DNA of 64,000 nucleotides, taken from NCBI GenBank assembly GCA_965238005.1, contig OZ250165.1, forward strand, positions 672,001-736,000, in the 5' to 3' direction. Under the pieces are notes generated by a model that saw only the letters and a list, made by a program, of their open reading frames with translations, was not told where the DNA came from and ran no database searches. This DNA is from Longimicrobiales bacterium (GTDB lineage: Bacteria; Gemmatimonadota; Gemmatimonadetes; Longimicrobiales; Gaopeijiaceae). Shown here piece by piece: positions 9,196 through 44,532 of this stretch (positions within the stretch are counted from its first letter, which is position 1; each line of letters begins with the position of its first letter). Made by a program: the position numbers and the translations under genes.

Positions 9196-9287
9196 GGGGG
9201 GGTCAGAGGGGGCACAGCCCCCCGCCAGCCCCTGCCGGGGACCCGCGAAGCGTGGCCCCAAAGGGTAAGCTGGCTCTCCCACCTTAG
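9196..9287. other. Putative oriT (ColE1/MOBP-like), copy 1
   Basis: Upstream of mobC; CGCCAGCCCCTGCCGGGGACCCGCGAAGCGTGGCCCC...GCTGGCT shared with 32201-32294; related motif at 36572-36653. Confidence 0.6.
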
Positions 9288-17363: not shown

Positions 17364-18644
17364 TCAGACCGTCGCCAGCGTGCGTAGAGCGCGCTGCACG
17401 CTACTCTGGGAGCTTGCTGGGGACGCAACGTCGAACGGCACGAAGACGAGCTTCAGGCCGTCGAAGAACCGGGCGGTGAACGGGCTGGTGAAGGCGCCGC
17501 TCCGGGGGTAGACCAGGGCCACGGCCCGGCACTCGTACAGCTTGCCGTAGGCGTAGAGCTGGTACAGGTCGGAGCTGACGATGTCGTGGATCCGGCCGGA
17601 TCCTCCCCTGCCGATGTGCTTCCACTTGGCGTCGAGGATGAACCGGACGGCGTTGGGGGGGTCGCGGAGCGAAATGTCCGGCTTCATCGCGAACACGCGC
17701 TTGCCGCCGATCGAGGCGATGTGCTTCCGTGGCCCTTGGGCGACCACCTGATACTCGGCTTGGTGGCGACGAAAGCTGTGGGTCACGAAGTCCTCGTACA
17801 CTTCCTCCATGGGGAAGAGCAGCGACTGATTGACGTGTCTGCCGGACCAGGTCGCAAGCCCCCGGTTGAAGAGGAAGAGGTCAACCCACTGCATGACCCG
17901 GCCGTAGTGCTGCATGGAGCGATCTATGCTGTGGCTGCGCCAGTCCGCGCGCGGGTCTCGGGTCGCCGGCACCCCGCTGAACGCCGGCCCAAGGTCCGCA
18001 AGCAGCCGCCGGTTGCGTTCGTTGCGCACGATGGGCTTGAGCCTGTCGAGGGTGGTGCGGATGAGCCGGTTGGCGGGGCGGTTGGGGCTCAGCTCGTCGT
18101 GTTCCACGTAGAAGCGTGAACGGTCGATCTGGTTCTCGCGCAGGTGATGCCGGAAGGCGATGCGGCCGCGCAGGAAGGGCAGATTCTCTTGGGTCGCCAC
18201 GTACCGTCGGCCGAGGCCGCCTCGAACCAGCAGGCTGACGTTTTCCAGGAAGAGTCGGACAAATACCTCGAGCATGGGAAAGCGCCGCAGCGTCCGAATG
18301 GCGCTGGGAGGGAGGTTCGCTGCCCTCTTCAGGCCGCGGTAGGCGCGCAGCATCGTTAGGAATGCCTCGCGAGTCTGCTCGTGGCCCGCGTACGCGACCC
18401 CGCCAAAGTCGATCTTGGGCAGGATCTCGACGACTGTGCCGCGCTTCGTGGTGATCGTGCCAACGTAGTTGCTCGCGTGGAGTCTGCCACTCCGGCCAAA
18501 GTGAAGGACCGGGCCGTATCCGTGTTCCTGAAACGCACGTGCATTGTCGTGCGCGAAGGCCTTCAGATCCTCCAGATCGCGCCTGTCGAGCCCGAGTCTG
18601 ATGCGGAACTGCTCGTACTCCCGAATGGTGTAAACACTAGGCAT
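17364..18644 (-). CDS. mcrC: McrC-family nuclease subunit (system 1)
   Basis: FPMEEVYEDFV, KPDI, ILDAKWK, DLYQLYAY. Confidence 0.92.
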   Translation of the reverse strand: MPSVYTIREYEQFRIRLGLDRRDLEDLKAFAHDNARAFQEHGYGPVLHFGRSGRLHASNYVGTITTKRGTVVEILPKIDFGGVAYAGHEQTREAFLTMLRAYRGLKRAANLPPSAIRTLRRFPMLEVFVRLFLENVSLLVRGGLGRRYVATQENLPFLRGRIAFRHHLRENQIDRSRFYVEHDELSPNRPANRLIRTTLDRLKPIVRNERNRRLLADLGPAFSGVPATRDPRADWRSHSIDRSMQHYGRVMQWVDLFLFNRGLATWSGRHVNQSLLFPMEEVYEDFVTHSFRRHQAEYQVVAQGPRKHIASIGGKRVFAMKPDISLRDPPNAVRFILDAKWKHIGRGGSGRIHDIVSSDLYQLYAYGKLYECRAVALVYPRSGAFTSPFTARFFDGLKLVFVPFDVASPASSQSSVQRALRTLATV

Positions 18645-20799
18645 CGATTCGAGACTGATCGTCGCCGGTGTCGGGATTCTCGTCCTGCCGCGGGTTACCA
18701 CCGACTGAGGCGCTCTCGTCGTATATGCGCCGGTACTGGACCGGATCCCGCCACTCCTTCGCCGTCGTAGGAAGCACCTCGTGGATGGCGGTGTCCGGAT
18801 CCAGCAGGCCCTCGTCCACCAGGCCGGACGCGTGCTCGCCGTCCTTCTTCACGACGACGAAAGCCGCGCCGCCCAGCACATGCCGGACCTTCGACCAGTC
18901 GTCGTAGAAGTACTCCAGCAAGAGGGGGAGGATGGCCATTCGGAACTTGTCGGCCAGCGATTCGACATCGTTCACGTTGAAGAGGTAGGTGTGGCCGATC
19001 TGGCGTTCGCGATCCAGGAGCAGCGAGATGCGCCCGTTGATCGCCTTCAGCATCTTGCGAAGGTCGATACCGGCGACGCTATCCGCGATGAGCGGATGAT
19101 CCGGGTTGGGCATCATCTCCACGTGGTCGAACCTGCGCCGTAGGGCGGTGTCGAGAGGAAGAATGGAGCGGTCGGCCGTGTTCATGGTGCCGATGATGTG
19201 CAGGTTGCCCGGAACTCCGAAGCGGTCGCCGGAATAGGGCAACGTGACGGTCGTCTCGTCTTCCTGGCCGAAGCGGCGGGACGGTTCGATCAGCGTGATG
19301 AGCTCGCCGAGGATCTTTGGGATGTTGCCCCGATTGATCTCGTCGATGATGAGGACGTAGGGGCGGTCGGGATCGGCCAGAGCCGCGTCCGCGATTGACC
19401 TGAAAATTCCGGGCCGGAGTTCGTAGCCGATGTCACCGCCCTTCCCGAGCCGGGGCCGGATGCCTTCCACGAAGTCCTCGTAGGAATAGTTCTGGTGGAA
19501 GGTGACCATGGCGATCTGGCCGGTCGCATCCATGGGATTGAAGCGGAGACTGCGGAATTCGGTGCGGTGTTCCTCATTGACTTCATCCGCCTCGATCCCC
19601 TTCACGATGGCCATGGCAAGAGTGGTCGTGCTATAGGTCTTGCCGGTGCCGGGTGGGCCGTAGAGGATTTGGTTGAGCTGGTGGACGGCGGTGGGTGTGG
19701 CGCCGTCCGGTGGTGGCAGCAAATCCACGGTCGCCGAATAGGCGGCGCATTTGGCGAAGGCCTCGTAGGTGCCGCGGCCAGCTCTCGAAAAACGGACCGC
19801 CGGAATGTCGACGGACAGGGGCGCCTGCTTCTTGTTCACCCACAGCACGTGTATTCGACTGTTCCGATGTAGCCGCTCGCTGTAATCGTTACGGTACACG
19901 ATCCCGATCCCACGCCCTTCCTGTCTCCCCGAGCGGACAAGAACGACATCGCCGGGCATGGGTTCGTCGAGCCGGTAATCTTGCTTGAGCCCTGGGAGCA
20001 CCTCGTCTTCCGCAGGCGGTTGCTTGTCTCCGTGTCCACCATGGTAGGCCCAGTTGTTTTCAAGGAAATCGGGCCACCTGTCTTCACTAGCGCTGATCTG
20101 ATACCAGCGATTGCCTTCGCGCGGAAGGGTTCCGCTCGTCCACAGGTAACCGAAGATGTTGATCTCGTAGCACTCGCAGCCGGGGAACGCGGTCTGCACC
20201 GTGCCCATTTCGTCGACGTACTCAGCCCAGGAAATCTCGGCTGGGGACGTGATGAACCTACCGATACCCAGCGGCAATACGGCCTTCGTGTCAAAGGGCA
20301 GAAACGATCTCGGATTGATCAGAAAGAGGACTTGCGTGAGTTTTGGGACACGGACTCCGTTGATCTGCAACATCTTGGCGAAGGTGTCGGCCCTAACGGC
20401 ACCGTACGATGTACCATCGAGGGCGCGCGCTTGGTTGAACATCTCCCAAAGAAGCTCAGGATTAGCTCCGCTGTTGTTGAACCTCACCGCCATCGCGGGC
20501 GGAGTCGGAAGGATAAAGCCGTCGTCGAAGCTGTGGTCGAGGTCGCTCTCGATCCCGAACACTTCCGCGACGCTCCCGTAGATCGTCCCCCTCTTCTCCG
20601 CCTTGCCGCCCGCGATCGACGCAAGATGGTAGAAGAACGTCAGCGGGTCGGCGTTGTCCTCCCCGTTTGCGAGCACGTGGCACGTCCCCCCCACCCAATC
20701 CACCTTCTTCGCCCTCGCCACGAGCCCCTTCCGTCCACCCTCCCCCACCTCTTGGGCTAGCTCCCCAAACCACGGTACCCATTGGAACAGCTCCTTCAT
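18637..20799 (-). CDS. mcrB: McrB-family AAA+ GTPase (system 1) with a ~370 aa unassigned N-terminus
   Basis: GPPGTGKT, TFHQNYSYEDF, DEINRGN, MNTADRS. Confidence 0.93.
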   Translation of the reverse strand: MKELFQWVPWFGELAQEVGEGGRKGLVARAKKVDWVGGTCHVLANGEDNADPLTFFYHLASIAGGKAEKRGTIYGSVAEVFGIESDLDHSFDDGFILPTPPAMAVRFNNSGANPELLWEMFNQARALDGTSYGAVRADTFAKMLQINGVRVPKLTQVLFLINPRSFLPFDTKAVLPLGIGRFITSPAEISWAEYVDEMGTVQTAFPGCECYEINIFGYLWTSGTLPREGNRWYQISASEDRWPDFLENNWAYHGGHGDKQPPAEDEVLPGLKQDYRLDEPMPGDVVLVRSGRQEGRGIGIVYRNDYSERLHRNSRIHVLWVNKKQAPLSVDIPAVRFSRAGRGTYEAFAKCAAYSATVDLLPPPDGATPTAVHQLNQILYGPPGTGKTYSTTTLAMAIVKGIEADEVNEEHRTEFRSLRFNPMDATGQIAMVTFHQNYSYEDFVEGIRPRLGKGGDIGYELRPGIFRSIADAALADPDRPYVLIIDEINRGNIPKILGELITLIEPSRRFGQEDETTVTLPYSGDRFGVPGNLHIIGTMNTADRSILPLDTALRRRFDHVEMMPNPDHPLIADSVAGIDLRKMLKAINGRISLLLDRERQIGHTYLFNVNDVESLADKFRMAILPLLLEYFYDDWSKVRHVLGGAAFVVVKKDGEHASGLVDEGLLDPDTAIHEVLPTTAKEWRDPVQYRRIYDESASVGGNPRQDENPDTGDDQSRIDA

Positions 20800-22237: not shown

Positions 22238-24277
22238 ATGAGGCCCTGGACGCTGGTCATCATCGGGGTGGCCCTGACGGCGGCCACGGTCCGCGCGTTC
22301 CTGGCGCCGTTTCCGGGCATCGGCGGGAACCCCGTGCTGGACCTGATCGCCTACCACGATCCGGGCCTACACACGGTGATCCACGTCTGGTACTACGCGG
22401 CGCCAGCCGTCGCCTTGCTGCTCGCCGGCAGCGTCTGCCTCTCGGTCTCGAGGGTCTGGCTCGAGCCGCGTACCCGGCGCGGCGCTCGCGGGAAGCTCCC
22501 CGCCTGGCCCACCTCGGCCACGGACGAGGCGCCCTCGCTCGTGATCGGCGAACTGCACCATCCGACCGTGCCGCGCGAGAGCGAGCGGCCGTCGTGGCTC
22601 GTCATCCCGGAGAAGGGGCTCTACACCGGCATCCTCATCGTGGGTGCCGTCGGCACCGGCAAGACGACCGCCTGCATGTATCCGTTCGCCCAGCAACTGC
22701 TCTCCCGGCGGGCCGACGAGCCGACCCGCCGCGCGGGCGCGCTCGTGCTCGAAGTCAAGGGGGATTTCTGCCACCAGGTCCGCGGCATCCTCGAAGACGC
22801 CGGGCGCGGGGACGACTACCTCGAGATCGGGCTCGACGGCTCCTGGCAGTGGAACCCGCTCGACGATCCGCTGCTCGATTCCTACTCGCTGGCCTACGGC
22901 GTCGCCTCGCTCATCAACCAGCTCTTCGGCAAGAGTAGAGAACCGTTCTGGCAGCAGGCGTACACGAATCTCGTGCGGTGGATCGTGGAGCTGCACCGGC
23001 TCCTGCCGGGGGGCTGGGTCACGCTCCGGGACATCTACCGCTGCACCGTGGACGCGGAGTTGTTCGCGGGGAAGATCGGCGAGGCCCGCGAGATGGCCGA
23101 CCGGATCTCTCCGGTGGACGCCGTCATCTCCAGCGACGACATGATCGCCCATGCGCAGGCGCTCAAGAAGTGGGACTGGGCGCCGGTGCCCGGCACTGAA
23201 CAGGTGCGCTGCCGGATGGACGCGGAGCTTCGGGCGCAGCTCGCGAAGCACGAAGTCGCATGCGAGGTGGAAGCGGCCGGGGGAGGCGCGGGCGGCGAGT
23301 TCAGGCAGCAGGTCGAGGCCATCGAGCGGTGGTACGTGCACGACTGGACGGTGCTCGACGCCAAGCTCCGCACCTCGATCGTCGAGGGCATCAGCGTCTT
23401 CCTGTCGCTCTTCGACCAGCCCGAGGTCGCCGGCGTGTTCTGTCCGCCGCCGCCGCCCCGAGAGGAGCCTCCCGATGAACCCACGCCGGACGAGAACGAC
23501 GACACCGAAGGCGCTGGCTATCCCATGCCGGGGCTCCGGCGGAGGCTGCCGCCGCTCTCCGATCTGATCGAAGACGGACGGGTCCTCGCGCTCAACATGC
23601 CCGCCGGAGCGAACCCCGCGCTCGCCCGCGCCATCGGCGTGCTGCTCAAGAACGCTTGGATGCAGGCGCTGCTCCGGCGGCCCGCCGAGGCCGCGCGCCG
23701 GCCCGACCGCTACATGCGACCCGCCGTGTTCATCTGCGACGAATACCAGGCGTTCGCCACCGTCGGGCAGGACGACCCTTCGGGCGACGAGAAGGCGTTC
23801 GCGCTCACGCGCCAGTGCCGCTGCATACCCATCGTCGCCACGCAGTCGATCTCCTCGCTCCGCTCCGTGCTGCCCTCGGGCGAGGCGTGGCGCACGCTCG
23901 TCCAGACGCTCCGCACCCGGATCTTCCTGTCGCTTTCCGACGAGGCGTCGGCGCGGGTCGCGTCCGAGATGTGCGGCAGCGTCATGAAGACGCAGGCCTC
24001 CCACACGTTCACCGAGAACACGGGCCGGCCCGAGTTCTCGCTCCTCTCCGGACGCGCCGGAGGCGGACGCGGCACCATCGGCACGAGCAAGTCGTTCCGA
24101 CAGGCCCGCGAGCCGGTGTTCACGCCGCGCGAGTTCTCGCTGCTCGCGAACTACCAGGCGATCTGCCTGCCGTATGACGGGGTCGTGTCGCTCCCCGCAC
24201 GGCGCGTCTACCTCAAGCCCCACTACCTGCCGCGCGAGACGGGCTACTGGCGGCTTCGTGAGGAGGGACGGATATGA
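22238..24277 (+). CDS. VirD4/TraD-like type IV coupling protein
   Basis: N-terminal hydrophobic segments, Walker A GAVGTGKT, LEVKGD, Walker B ICDEYQ, IVATQS. Confidence 0.88.
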   Translation: MRPWTLVIIGVALTAATVRAFLAPFPGIGGNPVLDLIAYHDPGLHTVIHVWYYAAPAVALLLAGSVCLSVSRVWLEPRTRRGARGKLPAWPTSATDEAPSLVIGELHHPTVPRESERPSWLVIPEKGLYTGILIVGAVGTGKTTACMYPFAQQLLSRRADEPTRRAGALVLEVKGDFCHQVRGILEDAGRGDDYLEIGLDGSWQWNPLDDPLLDSYSLAYGVASLINQLFGKSREPFWQQAYTNLVRWIVELHRLLPGGWVTLRDIYRCTVDAELFAGKIGEAREMADRISPVDAVISSDDMIAHAQALKKWDWAPVPGTEQVRCRMDAELRAQLAKHEVACEVEAAGGGAGGEFRQQVEAIERWYVHDWTVLDAKLRTSIVEGISVFLSLFDQPEVAGVFCPPPPPREEPPDEPTPDENDDTEGAGYPMPGLRRRLPPLSDLIEDGRVLALNMPAGANPALARAIGVLLKNAWMQALLRRPAEAARRPDRYMRPAVFICDEYQAFATVGQDDPSGDEKAFALTRQCRCIPIVATQSISSLRSVLPSGEAWRTLVQTLRTRIFLSLSDEASARVASEMCGSVMKTQASHTFTENTGRPEFSLLSGRAGGGRGTIGTSKSFRQAREPVFTPREFSLLANYQAICLPYDGVVSLPARRVYLKPHYLPRETGYWRLREEGRI

Positions 24278-29302: not shown

Positions 29303-29394
29303 CCCCATTCGGCGGGAACCGTTTGGCGGGAATCCGACCGGACAGCCTCCTAAGTTCAATGATCACAAACAGATCCGAATCCGAACGCGGATGC

Positions 29395-30162
29395 TGGATC
29401 ATCGAACTGTACCGGCTCTTGCCGGGGGGCTGGGTCACCCTCCAAGACATCTACCGCTGCACGGTGGATGCGGAACTGTTCGGCCGGAAGATCGGCGAGG
29501 CCCGCGAGCTGGCCGACCGGCTCTGCCCGGTGCGGGCCGTCATCGCGACCAGGGATCTCGCCGCTCACAAGGAACCCCTCGGGGAATGGGGCTGGGAGCC
29601 GGTGCCCGGCTCGGACAAGGCGGCTTGCCAGCTCGACCCCGCACTCCGGGACCGGCTCAAGGAACTCAAGGTCGCATACGAGACGGAGGAGAGCGGGGGC
29701 GGAGCGGGCAGTGAGTTCGGCGCGCAGGTCGAGGCCATCGAGCGGTGGTATCTGCATGACTGGATGGCGCTCGACGCCAAGCTCCGCACCTCCATCGTCG
29801 AGGGCATCAGCGTGTTCCTCTCGCTCTTCGACCAGCCGCAGGTCGCCGGCGTGTTCTGCCCGCCGCCACCGGACCCGGATGAATCCATACATATGTATGG
29901 TGCTGCGCCGGACGAGGACGCCGAGGCCGTCCGGCCCATGCCGGGCCTCCGCCGCCGGCTGCCGCCGCTCGCCGAGTTGATCGAGGGCGGCAAGGTCCTC
30001 GCGCTCAACATGCCCGCGGGCGCGAACCCGGCGCTCGGACGCGCGATCGGCGTGCTGCTCAAGAACGCCTGGATGCAGGCGCTGCTGCGGCGGCCCGCCG
30101 AGGCCGCCCGCCGGCCCGGCCGCTACCTCCGGCCCGCCGTGTTCATCTGCGACGAGTACCAG
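29395..30162 (+). pseudogene. VirD4-like middle fragment (WIIELY...ICDEYQ)
   Basis: Collinear with about 22978-23749. Confidence 0.9.
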
Positions 30163-30574
30163 TCCGATAATATATATGTCATAACTCTATATGCCATAAC
30201 CCGTTATGATGTCGCTTGCTCTCCCGCGATCACCCCTGCAATCACCCTTTGCGCGGCGGGTAGCGGAATCCCATGGAGCAGTTCCGTTCGCCGTTCTCCG
30301 TTCGGCCGTCCCGTGGGACCCGGCCTCGTCCCATAGCGACTCCCGGCAACTCAAGTTCGACGGCGGCTGACTTTTTATTCGTCACCGAACACCCCCCCAC
30401 CCCACCCCGACAAGGGGTGGGGTGGGCAGACGCGATTGGGTGCGCCCCTGGAGGGAGCGCGCCCTGATCCGCGCTGCCCCCTCCTTACAAGCAGGACCGC
30501 AGCGAACCGGCCGGGGAAGCCTCGCGGAGCGCTAGGAGTGCCCCGGGTCAGTCATGAACGCGCCGTCTCACCGT

Positions 30575-31669
30575 TCACCGTTCCCAGCTGTCAGGGAATG
30601 GCTGGTAGAGGTCGGCCGGATAGACCTGTCGCGGGAACATCGCCGACGGTTCGGATTGATCGGCCTCCCGCCGCCCGAAACGCCCGGAAGGTTGTTCGGT
30701 CGACGCTCGCCGACACTGACAACCGGCCTCCCGTATGTCGATGGCTTCCCAGATCTCATCCACACGGATGCCGAAATCCAGGCTTCCAACCGGGACACGT
30801 ACAATGTCACCATCCCCACCCACCACAGGGGCGACAATACTCGCATAGTTCACGGCGATGACCCAACCGTCGTGATCGAAGACCGGACTGCCGCTCGTTC
30901 CTCCTGTGGTATCGAAGTTGTACTGAACCTCCACGAATTGGGACCCTCCCGAATCGACCGCCCGGAGCGCACTGACCGCTCCGTCCTTGAATGTGGGGGT
31001 AACTATGCCACTGACCACCTCATCATCAAAACCCGTGAAAGACAGCGATCCGGGGAAGCCCAACGTGCCTACGGGCTGTCCGATGCTGATGTCGTTGACC
31101 ATCTCCCGGGGCAGGAGGTTCAGCCCAACAGGCATTTCCCCGTCGATGTACAAGAGTCCTATGTCCGAGGACGTGAGCGTTTCACTATCGTAGTCGGGAT
31201 GGAACCAACTGTCGTCGAGGGTCTCGGAGATCTCGAAGGTTCCGCTTTCACCCACGACGGTGCCTGATCGCACGACAACGGGCTCCGGGTTCATCACGCC
31301 CAGCTCCTCCAGAAAAGCAAGGCTCTCTTGCAGCCCCTCGATAACGTGGGCATTCGTCCAGATCGCATCCGAGTAGTGTGCTGCGAAACCAGTGCCCACC
31401 ACGCGGTACACTGTTCTCTCCAAGCGCGGGTGGAAAAACCGAACCCCGACCGCGTACACGGCTTCGTCCACGCGCGATTCCGTGATGACGTCCGACCAGT
31501 CCAGGGTCTCGCCTTGTGGGCCTTGTGGCCCCTCGGGGCCCGTAGCTCCATCGGTTCCATCAGCCCCTGGAAGACCCTGGGGACCTTGTGGCCCCACTGG
31601 CCCCACCGGCCCCTCGCAGCCGACAGCCAAGATGAGCAGGGCGGTCAGTACAACGGTCAGTGGGCGCAT
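30575..31669 (-). CDS. Lipoprotein with collagen-like Gly-X-Y repeats and trypsin-like serine protease
   Basis: LAVGC lipobox; GPVGPVGPQGPQG...; TNAHV, SDIGL, GTSGSP triad motifs. Confidence 0.88.
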   Translation of the reverse strand: MRPLTVVLTALLILAVGCEGPVGPVGPQGPQGLPGADGTDGATGPEGPQGPQGETLDWSDVITESRVDEAVYAVGVRFFHPRLERTVYRVVGTGFAAHYSDAIWTNAHVIEGLQESLAFLEELGVMNPEPVVVRSGTVVGESGTFEISETLDDSWFHPDYDSETLTSSDIGLLYIDGEMPVGLNLLPREMVNDISIGQPVGTLGFPGSLSFTGFDDEVVSGIVTPTFKDGAVSALRAVDSGGSQFVEVQYNFDTTGGTSGSPVFDHDGWVIAVNYASIVAPVVGGDGDIVRVPVGSLDFGIRVDEIWEAIDIREAGCQCRRASTEQPSGRFGRREADQSEPSAMFPRQVYPADLYQPFPDSWER

Positions 31670-31815
31670 CTTATACTCTTTGCAGTTGATGTGCAGATTC
31701 GCATTGAGCGGGCAACCCGACTCAGCGGGATCCCCAAAGACAATGGTTTCCGGGGGGGAAGTCTGGGGGTTCGATGGACGCCGAACAAGGCCACACTTCC
31801 GGCGAGGAGAAGAGG

Positions 31816-32148
31816 ATGACCAAAGCCGATCTCGTTGAGCAGGCCGCCGATGTGGCCGGACCGCGAGTCACCAAGAGGGACTGCGGGCTGGTGGTCGACG
31901 CCTTCCTCGACGCTGTGAAAGACGCGCTGGCGCGCGGCGACCACATCGAGCTCCGGGGCTTCGGCACCTTCAAGCTGCGGCACCGCAAGGCCCGCACGGG
32001 CCGCAACCTCAAGATCGGAGAGCCGGTCGAGGTTCCGCCCCGCGATGTGCCGGTCTTCGGACCCTTGAGGCACCTCCTCCGCCGGGTGGACCGAAGCCAC
32101 GGCTCGTCCGTCACGGGGGAGCCCTTGGAGGCCGTCGGCAAGCCGTAG
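31816..32148 (+). CDS. HU/IHF-family DNA-bending protein
   Basis: MTKADLVEQ, IELRGFGTF, RKARTGRN. Confidence 0.9.
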   Translation: MTKADLVEQAADVAGPRVTKRDCGLVVDAFLDAVKDALARGDHIELRGFGTFKLRHRKARTGRNLKIGEPVEVPPRDVPVFGPLRHLLRRVDRSHGSSVTGEPLEAVGKP

Positions 32149-32200
32149 CCCGCCCGCCACGACCGCGTCGCTGGCCGCGGGTGGAAGCGCTGGCTCATGC

Positions 32201-32294
32201 CCCTTAAGGTGCGTAAGCCAGCCTACCCTTTGGGGCCACGCTTCGCGGGTCCCCGGCAGGGGCTGGCGAGGGACTCCGCCCCTTCGATCCCCCC
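32201..32294. other. Putative oriT, copy 2
   Basis: Inverted near-copy of 9196-9287; contains CTGGCTTA (minus, 32214-32221), like the ColE1 nic motif. Confidence 0.62.
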
Positions 32295-32442
32295 TTGAGG
32301 CCCGCACTCGGGCGGAGGTCACGGGCGGCTGGCTCGCCCGTTCTTGTGTCCTGGCGGCGCGACCTGATGGCCGGTCGCCCGCACTGGGACCGCCGCCACA
32401 CGCGTGTCGCCGGTCGGTCGGGGTGGAACTTCCCAATCAGCG

Positions 32443-32841
32443 TCAGTCGGCGCGGTGAATTGACCTCGCCAGTTTGGCGGGGTAGTCCTCGCGCTTCCCC
32501 GTATCGCCAGTCTGAATGACGAAGTCACGCCGGTCGTGATACAGGCGCGCTCGGTTCAGCACGTAGTCCTGCCCGTCGTCGAGGTTGACCGTGTCCCAGT
32601 GAGTCATGAGCCAGTACTTGTAGTCGCCGATGAACAGATAGGTGTTCGGCCTGCCGAAGAAAGTGCCGGCGACGCCCTCCCCGGCCCGGAAGCGGGCAAC
32701 AACCAGCTCAACCAACTCATGCTGGCCGTCCTTGCGGCTGAGGACGTATTAGTGGGGCCACGTGTCCCGGTAGGTGACGGCTTCCCGCCACGGCGCGCGG
32801 TCGATCAACTCAGTGATCTTCAGGTTTTCCAGAATTCTCAC
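32443..32841 (-). pseudogene. Hypothetical protein with an in-frame stop
   Basis: ...WREAVTYRDTWPH*YVL...; TAA at 32749-32751; downstream frame stays open. Confidence 0.55.
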
Positions 32842-32914
32842 CGTCCTTCCGCTCAGCAAAGCGAGCCTCGCCGGCCTTGCCGCACTGGGACAGCCCTTCT
32901 GGTGCCCAGCCGTG

Positions 32915-34666
32915 CTAATCCGGTTTCTCCGTGCTGGCGGAAACGAGTCGGTGGCGCAGCTTCTTCAGGATACGGGTTCGGCGCGTCTCGTAGAAGTCCA
33001 GGAAACCCGTGAGTTCGGTTGGAACGTCGCCCAGATCGTGCAGGTCGCAGTGATTCCGCCGCCTTTCTTCCTCGGAGTACTGTGCGAGTAACCAGTCGGC
33101 AGGCGGCTTGGCACCCTTGCTCGTATTCGTCGATCCTTCGAGGAGCTGAAGGTTGGCTAGGCGGTTCATCCGATCGCGATACTCGGGGATCTTTTCCTCG
33201 TGGACGCCGGCCTTCTTCAGGCGCGCCGGGGTCATCAGCGCGCGCGGGAAGACATGGTCGATGTGGAAGCGGTTCGTGGCTACGTCGACGAAATCGTACA
33301 GGAGGAACAGGAGGCTGTAGGCCCTTCCATCGTACGCGGCGTCGGCCAAGTCCTGGAGTTCCTCGCCGTCGAAGGTCAGGCTCTTGCGGAGCGCATGCAT
33401 CGCCGCCTCGATCGCGCGAGCCGGGAAGCCGTCATGGCAGGAACTCTCCCGGATCCCCTTGCGGATCGCCACCAGCAGGTTATCGGCGGCGCTGCTCCAG
33501 ATCCCGTGTTTGAGCAGCGAGCGAATCAACCAGTCACGAATCGCCTCGCGGTCCTTGGCGCCTAACGACGACTGACGGTGATGGAGGAAGTAGGCGATCG
33601 GCAACAGGGCGTTTGCCGATGTCAGGCTCTGTCCAGAGTAGCCGAACGAGGATGCGAGCTCCACCGTTTCTGTGATCGTGCTTCTGATGCGATCCCATTG
33701 ATCCTGCAGGGTGCCGATCTTCGATCTTCTGAAGTTCTCGACCTTGAATCGGATGCTCTTGCTGTCGCCGAGCATCAGGCAGGCCTTGAGCACGAAGTCG
33801 TGGTTGAATGAGAAGCCCCTGCCGATGTTGTTGATCTCGTCAACTAGAGCGTGGATCTCCTGCCGCGCGTCGACCTTATCCCATTGGGCCACCGCCATGC
33901 TGAGGAGCATGTCCGAGTAGGAGAGCGGGGTGCCGCCGCTGTTGGTACGAACGAAGATGTTGAGAACCCGTTCCGGGTTCTGGTTCGCCTCTTCGTAGGC
34001 CGAGACGATGCCGTCGCTGTGAACGACGCGGTGAAGCTGGTTGAGCGTCTTCTGAGGCTCGCGTGTATCCGCGAGCCGTAGGTCATGGACGACGTCGATC
34101 AGGTCCGCGGCATCCTCAACGTCGAGGATGCCTCCCACGCGGTACCAGTGTTCGTGGGCGTTCCGGCGGTTCCGGTCTCCGGCCTCCTTCTCCGGGAGAA
34201 GGCTGAACTTGTACGAGAGTTCCTCTTCGTCCTCCATCCGGGGCGCGAGGAGATCGAGGTAGAGCCGTCGTTCCGGAAAGGCGTGTGGGTTGTTCCACCA
34301 CAGGCGGGGAAGTTTCCATCTACCGCTGCCGTGGAGCCCGACATTCAGCGCCGTGAGGCGTTGTTGTCCGTCGAGCACCGCCTTCAAGCCGGGCACGGTG
34401 GCAGGCGCACCGTGGACGGGATTGTGGGGCTTCCGTTGATCGTAGTTCGTGATGAACTGGTAGAAGCTGTAATTCTTGGCAGTTTCAGGATCGACTCGCC
34501 AGAACAGGAAGGATCCGATCGGATAGCCGCGCATGAGGCTGTCGAAGAGCCGCTCGATCTGCTGCGGCTGCCACACCAACTCCCGTTGAATGGCCGGAAG
34601 CAGGTAACGGTTGTTGTGAATGTGGTCGATCGCCTCCTTGATCGTGATCGGCGTCTGAAATGCCAT
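32915..34666 (-). CDS. GmrSD-family (DUF262 plus C-terminal HNH) modification-dependent restriction enzyme
   Basis: LPAIQRELVW, DGQQRLT, FVRTNSGGTPLS; HIDHVFP...NLQLL...N. Confidence 0.9.
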   Translation of the reverse strand: MAFQTPITIKEAIDHIHNNRYLLPAIQRELVWQPQQIERLFDSLMRGYPIGSFLFWRVDPETAKNYSFYQFITNYDQRKPHNPVHGAPATVPGLKAVLDGQQRLTALNVGLHGSGRWKLPRLWWNNPHAFPERRLYLDLLAPRMEDEEELSYKFSLLPEKEAGDRNRRNAHEHWYRVGGILDVEDAADLIDVVHDLRLADTREPQKTLNQLHRVVHSDGIVSAYEEANQNPERVLNIFVRTNSGGTPLSYSDMLLSMAVAQWDKVDARQEIHALVDEINNIGRGFSFNHDFVLKACLMLGDSKSIRFKVENFRRSKIGTLQDQWDRIRSTITETVELASSFGYSGQSLTSANALLPIAYFLHHRQSSLGAKDREAIRDWLIRSLLKHGIWSSAADNLLVAIRKGIRESSCHDGFPARAIEAAMHALRKSLTFDGEELQDLADAAYDGRAYSLLFLLYDFVDVATNRFHIDHVFPRALMTPARLKKAGVHEEKIPEYRDRMNRLANLQLLEGSTNTSKGAKPPADWLLAQYSEEERRRNHCDLHDLGDVPTELTGFLDFYETRRTRILKKLRHRLVSASTEKPD

Positions 34667-34686
34667 GGTTCCGCCCTCCTAAGGGT

Positions 34687-35058
34687 TTAGGGGCAAGACG
34701 TGTGTGAACGTTGTGGGCAGGTCCCATTCGCTGCCGTAGGAGGAGTCGCGCGGCAGTTGTGTCGCTTCTCAACCCACCTCTGAGCGCGATCCGAAGTTGC
34801 CGGAAATGTCGCGGGCATAGAAATCCGCGCCGCCGTTCTACCGGAACGTGGCATTCGGAATCCTCGCACAACCCACGCCACACCTAGACCAGCTGCATAA
34901 ACGATCAGCCCAAAGATTACCCAACCAAACGCTGTATAGCTGGCAGCAGTGGGGTCCTCATTCAACCACACCAACCACACAAGGGGAACGCCCCCGAGCA
35001 CGCCCAATAGAATCCACAATCTCTGCCAGCCGTTCATACCGCCGTTCTCCTTGTCCAT
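34687..35058 (-). CDS. Hypothetical membrane protein
   Basis: GWQRLWILLG plus two hydrophobic segments. Confidence 0.5.
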   Translation of the reverse strand: MDKENGGMNGWQRLWILLGVLGGVPLVWLVWLNEDPTAASYTAFGWVIFGLIVYAAGLGVAWVVRGFRMPRSGRTAARISMPATFPATSDRAQRWVEKRHNCRATPPTAANGTCPQRSHTSCP

Positions 35059-35755
35059 CCCCCCCTTCCACGGGCCTCAACGGACTCCGCGTAAGGGGGA
35101 TCGGGGGAGCTAGAGCACTCCGGCTCGCTCGGAGCCTCCAAGGGCCCCGCCTCGCTCGCTCCAGGGCCTCCCGTGTCCTAAAAAAAACTCTCCGGGAAAA
35201 ATCCCAGAGAAGGCGTATCCGACAGAACCGTACAACCCTCGCGGTCCTTCCACAGGTGCGCCCCAGCGTTTGCCCCCCTATCCCCTCCAGGGCCTCACGC
35301 ACGGCCTCGGGGTCCAACCCCGGCTCAACAGTAGCCCTCGTTCACCCGCAGGTACTCCAGGATGAACAGGTCCAGGTCCTCGGACAAGGCCTGCATGATG
35401 AAGCCCGCATCACCGCCGTGTTGGCCTAAGGTCTCGCCCCTCTCCCACGTAGTGGCCCCTCGCTCCAGTCCGCTCAGGTAGTAGTCGTAGGCCAGCTTCG
35501 CGAAGCTCCTGGCCCGTGAGCGGCGCGGCGAGAGCTAGACTCGCCAAAGCGAGCCGGTAGCCCGGATTCCGGCTCATGCCTGCCTCCGTTGCCGGGCCTG
35601 CGGCTTGCCTCCAGGGGCCATCCTCTCCCGTTAGAGAGACGTGGAGCACCCGTTACGCGAACTTTTACCGACCGCTGGTGGCGCGGCTGCGTCGGTCAGG
35701 AAGCGGCTGAGAAGTGGGCTTGACACCTAGAGCCCAGTTCACTCTTCTGCACAAC

Positions 35756-36217
35756 ATGAAGACCTCACCGTGGCTGATCGTGACCGTCGCGGCCGTCCTC
35801 GCTGGATGCGGTGACCTGGGAAGTCCCGTTGCGCCGTTCCCGATATACCCGCAAGTCGCAGGCATATACACCGGCCCCGCGACGATCACCGCCCACACAA
35901 CGGGGTTGACACTCACAGGGTTCGGGCGGGCCATTGTCTTTCAGTCCCGCAACGAGGTTACGATCCACGGATCGTTTACGTTCGGGGGGGTGGAATCTGT
36001 GCGGCCAGCCGCCACTGGAACGATCAACGAAACCGGGTTCTTTACGCTCATCGCGAGCGGGGCCGTGCCTGGTCCTCCCACAGTGTCGGGCCAATGTGGG
36101 ATCCTCACGCTCACCAGCCAATCCCTCCACTTCGCGGGACACACCCTTACCTTTCAGGAGGGCCACCAGACCACGTTTTGCGGGCCCGTGGCCCTGGTAG
36201 CCACCCTTACCCGCTAG
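35756..36217 (+). CDS. Hypothetical lipoprotein
   Basis: Signal peptide with LAGC lipobox; TTGACA at 35720. Confidence 0.7.
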   Translation: MKTSPWLIVTVAAVLAGCGDLGSPVAPFPIYPQVAGIYTGPATITAHTTGLTLTGFGRAIVFQSRNEVTIHGSFTFGGVESVRPAATGTINETGFFTLIASGAVPGPPTVSGQCGILTLTSQSLHFAGHTLTFQEGHQTTFCGPVALVATLTR

Positions 36218-36269
36218 TAACCAGCTCAGGCTGCATCACGAGCCCCCTAGCTCGCATCCTAATACCGCC

Positions 36270-36355
36270 TTGCGCGCCTCCAGAAGCCCCACGACCTCTT
36301 CCAGCGTCCACATTGTGGTCGGCTTACTCCTGCGGCCATAGCCGGGGTCGTGTGG
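36270..36355 (-). pseudogene. IS1-family transposase C-terminal remnant
   Basis: HTTPAMAAGV...MWTLEEVVGLLE, frameshifted. Confidence 0.5.
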
Positions 36356-36571
36356 ATGCCGCCACGGGCCTTCGTAAGCGTCTGATGCTTCCGGTGGAAG
36401 TCGTAGTCCCCGTTCCGGGCTCGGGACAGTGATAGCGCGACGTACGCACAGGTACAAGCGGGAGTCTTCTGGAGCCGGCGACGGTGACGGTGCGGCGATC
36501 AGGCATCGGGACGCACCGGAGGAAGGGGGGCGGAGCCCCCGACTGCGCGCTCCGGCGAAGCGTGGTTTTTC

Positions 36572-36653
36572 GGGGGATCGAAGGGGGGCGGAGCCACCCC
36601 TCGCCAGCCCCTTTGTGGGTACAAGGGGTATGCTGGCTCTTGACCCTTAAGGG
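36572..36653. other. Putative oriT, copy 3 (variant)
   Basis: GGGGATCGAAGGGG...CCTCGCCAGCCCCT...GGGTATGCTGGCT...CCTTAAGG, collinear with copy 2. Confidence 0.55.
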
Positions 36654-36724
36654 GTCATGAGCCAGCCGTGGATCGGCCTCGGATCGGGCCTCAATGGATC
36701 GCCCCCCGGCGGCTGGGAACCGGC

Positions 36725-37885
36725 CTACGCGTGTCGACGCTCGCCAGCCAGGTAGCCCGCCCACTGCTCCATCAGGATGCGGCGGCGCTCGAACAGGTCG
36801 GAGCGGGCGTAGGCGGCCTCCACCCTGTTGCGGACCGCGTGGGCCAGCGCCGCCTCCATGACCGCGTGCGGCGCGTCGGTGCGCTCCGCCGTCCAGTCCC
36901 GGAAGCTGGACCGGAAGCCGTGCGGCACGGCCGCGATCCCGAGCGCCTTGAGCAGGCCCGCGAACTCGAAGCTCGGCAGCACCAGCCCCCGCGCGGACGG
37001 GAACACCCACTCCGAACGAGGCGCGTGCGCCTTCGCCTCGGCCAGGATCTCCCGCGCCCGCGCCGACAGCGGCACCCGGTGCTCCCGCCGGCTCTTCATC
37101 CGCTCCGCCGGGATCGTCCACACTCCGCCCTCCAGGTCGACCTCCTCCCAGCGAGCCCCACGCACCTCGCCCGACCGGCAGGCCGTCAGCACCAGAAACT
37201 CGAAGCCCAGCTGCACCGTCACCCTTGCCTCGGATCGCTGGATCGCGTCAATCGCCCCGGCCACTTCCCGGTAGGGCAGCGCCTTGTAGTGCTTCTGGAC
37301 GCGCGGAGGCCTCGGCAGCGCGGCGCCGATCGCATCGCCCGCGGGGTTGTCCACGCGGTAGCCCTGCGCGATCGCCCACCGCATCACCGTCGAAATCCGC
37401 TGACGGACCCGCTTGGCCGTCTGGTGCTTCCCGTTCCAGACCGGAAGCAGCACCCCCATGACGTCGGCGGACGCGATCCGGTCCACCCGCTTCCCCCCGA
37501 TCCCGGGAAACGCATAGGTGCGCAGCGTCGCCATCCACTGGCCCGCGTGCCTGTCGGTCCAGGTCGGACGGTGCATGGCGAAGACCTTGGCCGCCGCCCG
37601 CTCGAACGTCGGCACTGAACTGTGCCGCTTCGTCCTCGGATCGCCGCCCGCGCGGGCCACCTTGCGGTTGGCCAGCGCCGTGTCCCGCGCCTCGGCCAGC
37701 GTCACGAGGCGGACCGAACCGAGCCCCAACTCCCTGCGCTTGCCGTGAATGAACAGCCGCTGGCTCCACTGCTTGTAGCCGGACGGCTTGACCCGTAGCA
37801 CGAGGCCGTGCTCGTCCCAATACAGCCCCGGTTCCCGGACGCTCCGCACGAAGGCGGCAGTGAGTTTCTTGGCGTGTCTGCCCAT
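36725..37885 (-). CDS. P4-like tyrosine integrase with arm-binding domain
   Basis: GLVLRVKPSG...LGLGS...LAEAR; LTACRSGE, HGFRSSFRDW, LAH, AAYARS, QWAGYL. Confidence 0.95.
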   Translation of the reverse strand: MGRHAKKLTAAFVRSVREPGLYWDEHGLVLRVKPSGYKQWSQRLFIHGKRRELGLGSVRLVTLAEARDTALANRKVARAGGDPRTKRHSSVPTFERAAAKVFAMHRPTWTDRHAGQWMATLRTYAFPGIGGKRVDRIASADVMGVLLPVWNGKHQTAKRVRQRISTVMRWAIAQGYRVDNPAGDAIGAALPRPPRVQKHYKALPYREVAGAIDAIQRSEARVTVQLGFEFLVLTACRSGEVRGARWEEVDLEGGVWTIPAERMKSRREHRVPLSARAREILAEAKAHAPRSEWVFPSARGLVLPSFEFAGLLKALGIAAVPHGFRSSFRDWTAERTDAPHAVMEAALAHAVRNRVEAAYARSDLFERRRILMEQWAGYLAGERRHA

Positions 37886-38040
37886 CTGGTCACCCTTTTG
37901 CGATCACCCCGTGGATCACCCTTTAGGTCTTGGAATATAGCGGCCTTCCTGAGATGGCAATATAACATAAGTATATCCCCTACAACAACTTCACTTGTCT
38001 TATGGGACTTCCTGGAACCTAGATGGACAGTGCGTAGAAG

Positions 38041-38577
38041 GAGTACCAGGCGTTCGCGACCGTCGGCCAGGACGATCCCTCGGGCGACGAGAAGGCGTTC
38101 GCGCTCACGCGGCAGTGCCGCTGCGTCCCGATCGTCGCCACGCAGTCGATCTCCTCGCTCCGCTCCGTGCTGCCCGGAGGCGAGGCCTGGCGCACGCTCC
38201 TCCAGACGCTCCGCACCCGGATCTTCCTGTCGCTGTCCGACGAGTCGTCGGCCCGGATCGCGTCCGAGATGTGCGGCAGCGTCATGAAGACGCAGCCCTC
38301 CTACACGTTCACCGAGACCACGGGCAGGCCCGAGTTCTCGCTCTTGTCCGGGCGAGCCGGCGGGGGCCGCGGCACGATCGGCGCGAGCAAGTCGTTCCGG
38401 CAGCAGAGGGAGCCCGTGTTCACGCCGCGCGAGTTCGCGCTGTTGGCCAACTACCAGGCGATCTGTCTGCCCTACGACGGCACGAAGTCGCTCCCTGCCC
38501 GGCGCGTCTACCTGAAACCCCACTACCTGCCGAGGGACGTGGGCTACTGGCGGCTCCGCGAGGAGGGCCGGATATGA
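38041..38577 (+). pseudogene. VirD4-like 3' fragment (copy D)
   Basis: EYQAFATVGQDD...YWRLREEGRI. Confidence 0.9.
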
Positions 38578-43648: not shown

Positions 43649-43740
43649 GACCAATCAGCGGGAATCAATCGGCGGGAATCCGGTCCGGTATGCCCGTAAG
43701 TTCAATTACCCCAAGCAGATGTGAACCTGTCGGCTTCTGC

Positions 43741-44532
43741 CCACTCGGCCCCCCGCACCTCACCCCATCGTGCCGCCGTCAGCACCAGGAACTCGAACGC
43801 CAGCCGGACGGCCAGCGGCACCGTTGATGCCCGCGCGGTCTGGATGGCCGCGGCCACCTCTCGATGCGGCAGCGCCCGCATGTGCTGCACGACGTCACGC
43901 TGGGGACCCAGGACCGGCCCGATCCGGTCGCACGGGTTGTCGATCCGGAACTCCATCGCCACCGCCCACTCCAACACCGCGCGGATGCGCTGCCGCAACC
44001 GCCGGGCGGTGTCCGCCTTCGTGTGCCAGATGGGAGCGAGGATCTCCAGCACGTCGGCGCTAGTGACCTCCGAGACCGGCATCTTCCCGATGCGCGGAAA
44101 GGCGTACCGCTCGAAGGTCAAGATCCAGTCGCGGCCGTGCGCCCGATTTCGCCAGCCGGCTTGCTTCTGTTCCACCACACGCGCGGTGGCTTCGGCGAAG
44201 CTCGGTACGCCCTGCCTACGACGCTTCTCGGCAAGCGGGTCGCCGCCCTCGCGGGCCAGCTTACGGTTGGCCAGCGCCTTTTCCCGGGCCTCGGCGAGGG
44301 AGACCAGCGCAACGCTGCCGAGCCCGAGCTCGCGGCGCCGACCCCGGATGACCAGGCGCTGAATCCAGCTTCGGGTTCCGCTCGGCTGGACGAAGAGGTA
44401 CAACCCGTTGCCGTCCGCGTGTCTTCCAGGCGGGGCAGTGCGCACGAAGGCGGCCGACAGGGCCTTGTCGGGATGGCGGCCCTTGGGCTTGGTTTTCCGG
44501 GGCGGAGTGGCCTTGTTCGTTCCAGTAATCAT
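43741..44532 (-). pseudogene. P4-like tyrosine integrase, C-terminus cut off by the copy D end
   Basis: HADGNGLYL arm domain through LTAARWGEVRGAEW; lacks HxxR and Y. Confidence 0.9.

What the first reader, a model, noticed from the sequence alone, without database searches (positions are those of the whole stretch)
30154..38049. 7.9 kb element inserted in the Walker B codons of the coupling-protein gene
Seen: virD4 of copy D is split at ...ICD-EYQ with GAGTACCAG duplicated, and precise excision restores the frame. The uninterrupted virD4 of copy C has the synonymous variant GAATACCAG (23741-23749). Established: streptococcal IMEs that target traG/virD4 of ICEs are known. Inference: a P4-like integrase targets a conserved motif of another element's transfer gene; copy C may escape through a silent change. 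The element carries its own HU/IHF and two oriT-like sites.
Basis: partly seen in the sequence, partly recalled or inferred. Interest (0 to 1): 0.75.

Follow-up and report, generated by a model that had tools for sequence, protein, structure and literature searches.

The report
Satellite island splitting a conjugation gene
A small mobile island with its own integrase inserts at one fixed 7-base spot in the DNA-pump gene of a larger transferable element, its relatives do the same in several other bacteria, and the pump gene shows extra silent changes at such spots, which may be escape.

Summary
Confirmed. A 7.9-kb element (30154-38049) splits the Walker B codons of a virD4-like gene; a relative genome holds the precise empty allele. 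The crossover is 7 bp (GTACCAG) between fixed cores (AAGGA / TCCGA), not 9 bp. Targeting is real but loose: 10 of 24 integrases in its clade sit in this site, in both orientations and in two phyla; the others carry different 7-mers or hit other genes; none of 61 loci is at a tRNA. The element has an IHF-like gene, two ColE1-type oriT-like sites and BrxU-like defence cargo, but no relaxase or excisionase was found. Copy D is already 5'-truncated by ICE copy C, so excision restores only a fragment here. GAA escape is unproven: 0 of 24 GAA sites against 9 of 74 GAG sites are occupied (p=0.11). Silent changes are about 2.5-fold enriched at three of four virD4 att sites, but not at a virB11 att site, and restriction palindromes confound the Walker B site. 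It works like streptococcal IME_traG and helper-embedded PICIs but belongs to neither. The scan found the sister element of this genome before (e1-8065659).

The parts
29395..30162 (+). Upstream surviving part of virD4 copy D (about codons 276-532), ending in Walker B FICDEYQ; the gene's first ~275 codons are absent
30148..30167 (+). attL: host arm TGCGACGA, 7-bp overlap GTACCAG (30156-30162), element core TCCGA
30230..30250 (+). Two arm-type repeats TCACCC at the distal end (integrase binding inferred)
   Evidence: (D18)
30575..31669 (-). Cargo: trypsin-like protease with short collagen repeat and lipoprotein-like N-terminus; absent from sister elements
   Evidence: joint 30367-31816 skipping it in 2 of 4 runs
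31816..32148 (+). IHF-beta/HU-like gene; found in 10 of 12 complete elements; this copy has RNL for the conserved RNP
32205..32294 (-). oriT-like site 1: hairpin then GGGTAGGCTGGCTTA; 88% identical to the region directly upstream of mobC at 9196-9286; shares TAAGCCAG with ColE1
32443..32715 (-). 90-aa ORF, no family found
32915..34666 (-). Cargo: GmrSD-like HEC-05 (BrxU-type) defence nuclease
   Evidence: Pfam GmrSD_N/C; PADLOC HEC-05 E=4e-211; paper passages
34687..35058 (-). 123-aa ORF, no family found; may not be a gene
35714..36217 (+). 167-aa ORF, no family found; 98% identical copy in L038
36590..36660 (+). oriT-like site 2, inverted relative to site 1 (GGGTATGCTGGCTCT)
   Evidence: I1; z=-3.0
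36725..37885 (-). P4-like tyrosine integrase, 386 aa, intact catalytic residues
37890..37924 (+). Three arm-type repeats TCACCC just upstream of the integrase start
38038..38057 (+). attR: element core AAGGA, overlap GTACCAG (38043-38049), host arm GCGTTCGC
38050..38577 (+). 3' part of virD4 copy D, followed by virB11, ardC, Replic_Relax-like gene, xis-like gene and the host integrase
23741..23749 (+). Empty Walker B site of virD4 copy C, GAATACCAG; the A is position 1 of the 7-bp overlap

Best explanation
A relaxase-less integrative satellite whose preferred attB is the Walker B codons of virD4 in a VirB-type ICE family. SHOWN: fixed anatomy attL - IHF-like gene - oriT-like site(s) - variable cargo - integrase - attR; arm repeats at both ends; 7-bp overlap between symmetric cores; repeated insertion at this site in both orientations; empty alleles. 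INFERRED: the integrase binds short degenerate cores (about [CG]G[ACT]-N7-[TGA]C[CG]) and needs a matching 7-mer, so the overlap carried in attP largely sets the target; GTACCAG finds virD4 because the motif is conserved, multi-copy and dispensable for the cell, and a changed overlap retargets near-identical integrases. INFERRED, less sure (about 0.5): the element excises as a circle, which restores virD4 where the ICE is otherwise whole, is nicked at its oriT by an MbeA-like relaxase from another island, leaves through the ICE channel and finds its target again in the recipient. The IHF-like protein probably bends the att arms. Defence cargo helps it persist. At this particular locus it is a passenger in an already broken virD4.
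For: Site recurs: window, 329k and 875k in G000; L038, L093, L056 direct and L043, L048, L049, L050 inverted among 61 loci; further junctions in G005, G079 and G046. A starred 24-row clade (98/95) has virD4-targeting rows on its deepest branches and derived clades with GAACCAG or TTCCCAG. In G000, 3 of 4 exact virD4 sites are hit against 1 of 18 other consensus sites (p=0.01). All 6 complete virD4 insertions counted have GTACCAG at both ends, while 30 of 67 empty sites have it (p=0.011). L048 lies in an ICE with virB4, virB9, virB10, trbL and full-length virD4. The L056 element in an Acidobacteriota chromosome is 98-99% identical in DNA to the 872k element. No relaxase or AlpA hit in 12 complete elements; six MbeA-like relaxase loci lie elsewhere in G000.
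Against: 14 of 24 clade members are not in virD4, including a 98.7% identical copy in a chromosomal gene. No circle joint was among the listed joints in 4 runs; the empty-site joint in 3 of 4 runs can come from paralogous empty virD4 copies. No excisionase was found. The strict nic-like pattern was found in only 5 of 12 complete elements. Which relaxase uses the site was not tested. Kin are not independent, so the p-values overstate. None of 120 metagenome Walker B loci was occupied.
Confidence: 0.75

Rival explanations
1. Loose integrase plus survivor bias: the enzyme uses any short consensus site; virD4 dominates only because it is multi-copy and insertions in needed genes are purged. No adaptation to conjugation.
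For: 24 consensus matches in G000; off-target copy at 2110k; sister clades in an amine-oxidase-like gene and other genes; many hit virD4 copies are already broken.
Against: Two opposite overlap orientations converge on the same codons; the site is kept in a virD4 only 45-53% identical in another phylum; other integrase clades also hit virD4, virB11 and virB4.
Confidence: 0.2
2. Silent escape: ICE virD4 alleles are selected for synonymous changes at att sites (GAA, TAT, CAA) that break overlap matching.
For: In 51 virD4 sequences, amino-acid-matched parsimony changes observed/expected: CDEYQ 41/15.9, KGDFCH 39/16.7, FWQQAY 35/11.6 (p about 1e-3 or less), VELHR 24/13.7 (p=0.04; p=0.5 when all third bases count). 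Att codons outside nine listed palindromes still give 86/37.3. Two control sets of metagenome homologues (22 and 18 sequences) show no excess at Walker B. Occupied sites: 8 exact, 1 variant.
Against: The out-of-sample test at the virB11 att site failed (35 sequences, window residual -0.9 to 0.0). The strongest raw peak, GRAGGG at 633-638, has no insertion among 110 matches in 32 genomes. All three Walker B overlap wobble bases lie in GTAC or CCWGG, and CCWGG and GGCC sites are elevated outside att windows (p=0.04, 0.005); Walker B core-only p=0.07. GAA alone p=0.11. The FWQQAY site rests on one insertion (L027). Att windows were fixed after the first scan had been seen.
Confidence: 0.35
3. The excess of silent changes comes from restriction-site avoidance, methylation-linked mutation, or scars of abortive integrase cleavage, without selection for escape.
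For: Palindrome effect outside att windows; CAG to CAA is the change expected from deamination of methylated CCWGG (own knowledge); GTAC is mildly under-represented in G000 (0.85).
Against: Non-palindrome att codons are still 2.3-fold enriched; CCWGG is not depleted genome-wide (1.02). Scars cannot be told from escape with these data.
Confidence: 0.4
4. The satellite is a pure parasite or defence island that disables ICE transfer and stays put; the oriT-like sites are leftovers.
For: No relaxase, no excisionase, altered IHF copy, defence cargo; several copies are truncated or overlaid by other elements.
Against: 98-99% DNA identity across phyla implies recent transfer; hairpin stems before the nic-like motif vary while staying paired.
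Confidence: 0.15

Closest known systems
Firmicute IMEs in traG (VirD4) of Tn5252-superfamily ICEs: IME_Sco1050_traG_site1/site2, Tn6104 (PMC5357655, PMC5704250; passages read)
   Same: Small integrative element that specifically disrupts the VirD4 coupling-protein gene of an ICE; excision-restores-transfer model proposed, untested there too
   Different: Those use serine integrases (most carry their own relaxase); here a P4-like tyrosine integrase, no relaxase, Gemmatimonadota and Acidobacteriota hosts, both orientations, IHF-like gene
Helper-embedded PICIs (PMC10111431; abstract, introduction, part of methods and passages read)
   Same: One tyrosine-integrase clade repeatedly evolving new att sites inside helper genes; identity enforced at a 7-bp core; doubled arm motif
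   Different: Helper is a prophage; HE-PICIs are co-oriented and encode AlpA and primase; here the helper is an ICE, both orientations occur and no AlpA was found
IntSXT subgroup tyrosine recombinases, including the P4 cluster (PMC8138268; passages read)
   Same: N-terminal arm-binding domain of genomic-island type plus core-binding and catalytic domains
   Different: Described clusters insert at flanks of tRNA, guaA or prfC without disruption; this clade disrupts internal coding sites
Relaxase-less IMEs such as SGI1 and MGIVflInd1, and tyrosine-integrase IMEs in ICE oriT (PMC5704250; passages read)
   Same: Integrase plus oriT, no relaxase, dependent on a helper
   Different: Those do not sit inside the helper's coupling-protein gene; the oriT here resembles ColE1/MOB_P5-type islands rather than, as far as tested, the host ICE

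Membership tests
IntSXT/P4-like arm-domain tyrosine integrase | N-terminal genomic-island arm-binding domain, core domain, RKHRH-Y catalytic set | tested here: met
   PF13356, PF22022, PF00589; residues. That PF13356 equals DUF4102 is recalled.
P4 cluster of IntSXT | Insertion at tRNA genes | tested here: not met
   No tRNA within 1.6 kb of the integrase start in 61 of 61 loci; none in the window
IME (general) | Own integrase and att sites, no VirB4 | tested here: met
IME (general) | Functional oriT | tested here: inconclusive
   Sequence match to mobC-upstream region and ColE1 motif; nick position recalled; pattern in 5 of 12 elements
IME (general) | Excision and mobilisation by a helper | not testable with these tools
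   Contig joints ambiguous
Streptococcal IME_traG | Internal site in the VirD4 gene of an ICE | tested here: met
Streptococcal IME_traG | Serine integrase | tested here: not met
   Tyrosine integrase against paper passages
Streptococcal IME_traG | Tn5252-superfamily host ICE in Firmicutes | tested here: not met
   Host genes match VirB4/B9/B10/B11/TrbL profiles; relatives are Gemmatimonadota and Acidobacteriota
HE-PICI | Tyrosine-integrase clade with several att sites inside helper genes | tested here: met
HE-PICI | Target is a prophage late gene, element co-oriented | tested here: not met
   Target is virD4; both orientations
HE-PICI | AlpA gene | tested here: not met
   No hit with one G000 AlpA-like query in the window element or 12 complete elements
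HE-PICI | Primase and replication origin | not tested
   No primase family among the window element's ORFs scanned; no dedicated search

The most novel reading that the evidence does not exclude
A guild of P4-like satellites parasitises one ICE family at several conserved motifs, retargets by swapping or flipping a 7-bp overlap, and drives the ICE's coupling-protein gene to escape through synonymous changes, so that peaks of silent change map an arms race between mobile elements inside a coding sequence.
Probability: 0.33. Interest if true: 0.82.

Novelty: new variant of a known kind. Interest (0 to 1): 0.58.

Why it matters
It extends 'satellite inside the helper's essential gene' from streptococcal serine-integrase IMEs and phage PICIs to tyrosine-integrase satellites of ICEs in other phyla. 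The clade is a natural series for how integrases change target: 84-99% identical enzymes, constant cores, five overlaps, one of them flipped. That makes the old idea of retargeting through the overlap directly testable and may give an integrase whose target is set by a 7-mer. If the silent-change peaks are escape, synonymous sites would record conflict between mobile elements and could be used to find att sites.

Tried and rejected
9-bp core: rejected for 7 bp. 'Only GAA copies are empty': rejected; 36 of 89 empty sites are exact GAGTACCAG. tRNA targeting: rejected. Prediction of an att site at GRAGGG 633-638: not met; partial matches broke at 622-623, at an internal deletion or at contig ends. 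Replication of the silent-change peak at virB11: failed. Order-wide search of 301 genomes: 15 with close integrases, all in one family, mostly loci already held. Reads: only assembled contigs, no circle joint listed, 81 joints not shown; runs with a small share were not used for habitat. Promoter scan of the right arm: nothing. 90-aa ORF: no family or atlas hit. Automatic repeat pairing for the other G000 integrases mostly failed; their targets were read from the proximal junction. The ColE1 nick position was not found in two papers searched. No structure or complex prediction was run.
Full report
1. Observation. The 9-mer GAGTACCAG flanks 7,887 inserted bases (30154-30162, 38041-38049); copy C reads GAATACCAG. 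The flanks read in one frame, 346 of 433 residues identical to copy C virD4, whose Pfam hits are TrwB_AAD_bind and TraG-D_C. Genome G041 carries the same C-D tandem without the element, and G079 carries it with a different 3.7-kb element at the same base. Copy D starts at about codon 276: ICE copy C ends in ...GGATGCTGGATCA, an end that continues into unrelated DNA at another G000 locus, so C is itself integrated in D (same junction in G041, G050, G079). No matching 5' half was found in G000. Excision here restores a frame, not a gene.

2. Host. The gene order virD4 - virB11 - ardC - 300-aa gene - xis-like - tyrosine integrase recurs in many copies. The 300-aa gene has no Pfam hit; the atlas links it to Replic_Relax at 0.90, a lead only. 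VirB4, B9, B10 and TrbL homologues lie elsewhere in G000 and upstream of virD4 in L048. Named relatives are MAGs of Longimicrobiales, Ca. Palauibacter and Bryobacterales; that these are sponge symbionts is my recollection.

3. att anatomy. Each end has TCACCC repeats, three beside the integrase start and two at the far end, conserved in relatives. Relatives show constant AAGGA and TCCGA with a variable 7-mer between. Four relatives sit in the same codons in the opposite orientation with the 7-mer reversed (CTGGTAC, CTGATAC). The 98.7% identical copy at G000 2110k lies in a chromosomal gene whose empty allele in G001 and G002 reads GGC-GTACCAG-TCG. So the overlap is 7 bp and the extra GA is part of the core. 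Tyrosine integrases typically enforce identity over such a 7-bp segment (PMC10111431, passage).

4. Specificity. Of 61 loci found with the clade alignment, 7 are in virD4 Walker B. A tree of 48 rows (42 of the 61 loci, fragments and most of the 69-75% group left out, plus 6 G000 rows) gives a starred 24-row clade: 10 in Walker B, 14 elsewhere. The others use GAACCAG (3 in an amine-oxidase-like gene; 1 elsewhere), TTCCCAG (3 at the 3' end of other P4-like integrase genes, 4 elsewhere), or single off-targets; one row (L054) has lost its proximal end. The sister clade of 14 uses a non-coding GC-rich site. No tRNA lies within 1.6 kb of any of the 61 integrase starts. In G000, 3 of 4 exact virD4 sites and 1 of 18 other consensus sites are occupied; purging of harmful insertions can contribute.

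5. Content. Twelve complete elements of 3.7-11 kb were compared: all have the integrase, 10 an IHF-like gene at the far end, none a hit to the relaxase, MobC or AlpA queries. Cargo varies: HEC-05/BrxU here, a UzuA-like gene in the 872k element. Site 1 is 88% identical to the DNA directly upstream of a mobC gene and shares TAAGCCAG with the ColE1 region upstream of mobC; that ColE1 is nicked there is recalled. MbeA-like relaxases exist in G000. The 872k element is 98-99% identical to one in a Bryobacterales chromosome.

6. The GAA question. A pattern search of 44 genomes gave 97 sites in 30 genomes; with 7 from G000 and identical contexts merged, 98 remained: 89 empty, 9 occupied (8 GAGTACCAG, 1 GAGTATCAG). 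GAA: 0 of 24 occupied; GAG: 9 of 74; p=0.11. Exact 7-mer against any variant in the Longimicrobiales-type subset: 8 of 38 against 1 of 38, p=0.028. Silent changes: in 65 distinct alleles the overlap wobble bases of Tyr, Gln and Glu need 13, 11 and 7 parsimony steps against a median of 1 at 48 other sites, with no such excess in two metagenome control sets. In 51 alleles long enough (others dropped for truncation, stops or duplication), the four att sites then known in virD4 fell among the six highest windows; amino-acid-matched permutation gave 139 observed against 58 expected, and 98 against 42 without Walker B. Against this: no excess at the virB11 att site; no insertion at the top raw peak; palindromes CCWGG and GGCC also run high and cover, with GTAC, all three Walker B wobble bases, though 19 att codons outside palindromes still give 86 against 37. 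Recombination among ICE copies inflates parsimony counts, and alleles are not independent. I put escape at about one in three.

7. Mechanism. See Best explanation: shown are anatomy, site, recurrence, orientation flip and empty alleles; inferred are overlap-set targeting (about 0.75) and excision-linked, relaxase-in-trans transfer (about 0.5). Retargeting through secondary sites and the overlap is an older idea for lambda-family integrases (recalled; only the start of a title seen in a reference list).

8. What is known. IMEs in traG are described with serine integrases (PMC5357655, PMC5704250, passages). HE-PICIs are the closest tyrosine-integrase parallel but for prophages; 'ICE', 'conjugat' and 'synonymous' do not occur in that paper. 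Eight searches found no report of a tyrosine integrase in virD4 or of synonymous escape at an ICE att site. The library lacks most subscription papers, and I read no supplements; large att-site tables (for example PMC12884075, seen as a listing only) may list such elements. The scan's own notes already describe the 872k sister and the wider set of islands in conjugation genes; I had mapped 872k before that look-up.

9. Verdict. Real, recurrent, a new variant of a known kind. Interest 0.58; higher if the overlap-swap and escape tests succeed.

Noticed in passing
window 29375-29401; G000 848124; L123, L285, L093: ICE copy C is integrated in virD4 copy D at TGGATCA (W276-I277); other copies of this ICE family end in mobC, a relaxase gene, an oriT-like site, a P4-like integrase gene or a tRNA.
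   Followed up: partly
G000 740435, 2750404, 2751568, 2835687, 2733964, 2785464; L027, L354, L367-L371: Other P4-like clades (30-59% identity) insert in virD4 at codons 205-207, about 270, about 280 and near the start codon, in virB11 at about 240 and in virB4.
   Followed up: partly
virD4 codons 633-638 (window about 24050-24067): Strongest raw peak of silent change (GRAGGG) with no insertion found; unexplained.
   Followed up: partly
L041, L044, L055: The TTCCCAG subclade inserts in the last codons (…LMADWE) of other P4-like integrase genes.
   Followed up: no
L057-L069, L083, L085: The 79-81% sister clade inserts in a conserved non-coding GC-rich site next to oriT-like hairpins.
   Followed up: no
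L042 both ends: Its distal arm reads TCGTCGCAGAT, the virD4 host arm, in place of TCCGAACAGAT; it may have captured host sequence while in virD4.
   Followed up: no
G000 330504: The 329k copy has lost its left part where another ICE joins at its oriT-like site 2.
   Followed up: partly
window 31816-32148 and G000 2111695-2112021: Both copies of the IHF-like gene have RNL for RNP and GPL for KPS/QPS, unlike the other relatives.
   Followed up: no
virD4 H281, virB11 V243: Amino-acid changes (H/Y, I/V) also occur inside or beside att sites of other clades.
   Followed up: no
window 43702-44532 and 18637-20799: A 5' fragment of another P4-like integrase abuts the end of ICE copy D; an AAA_5 (McrB-like) gene lies upstream of copy C.
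   Followed up: no
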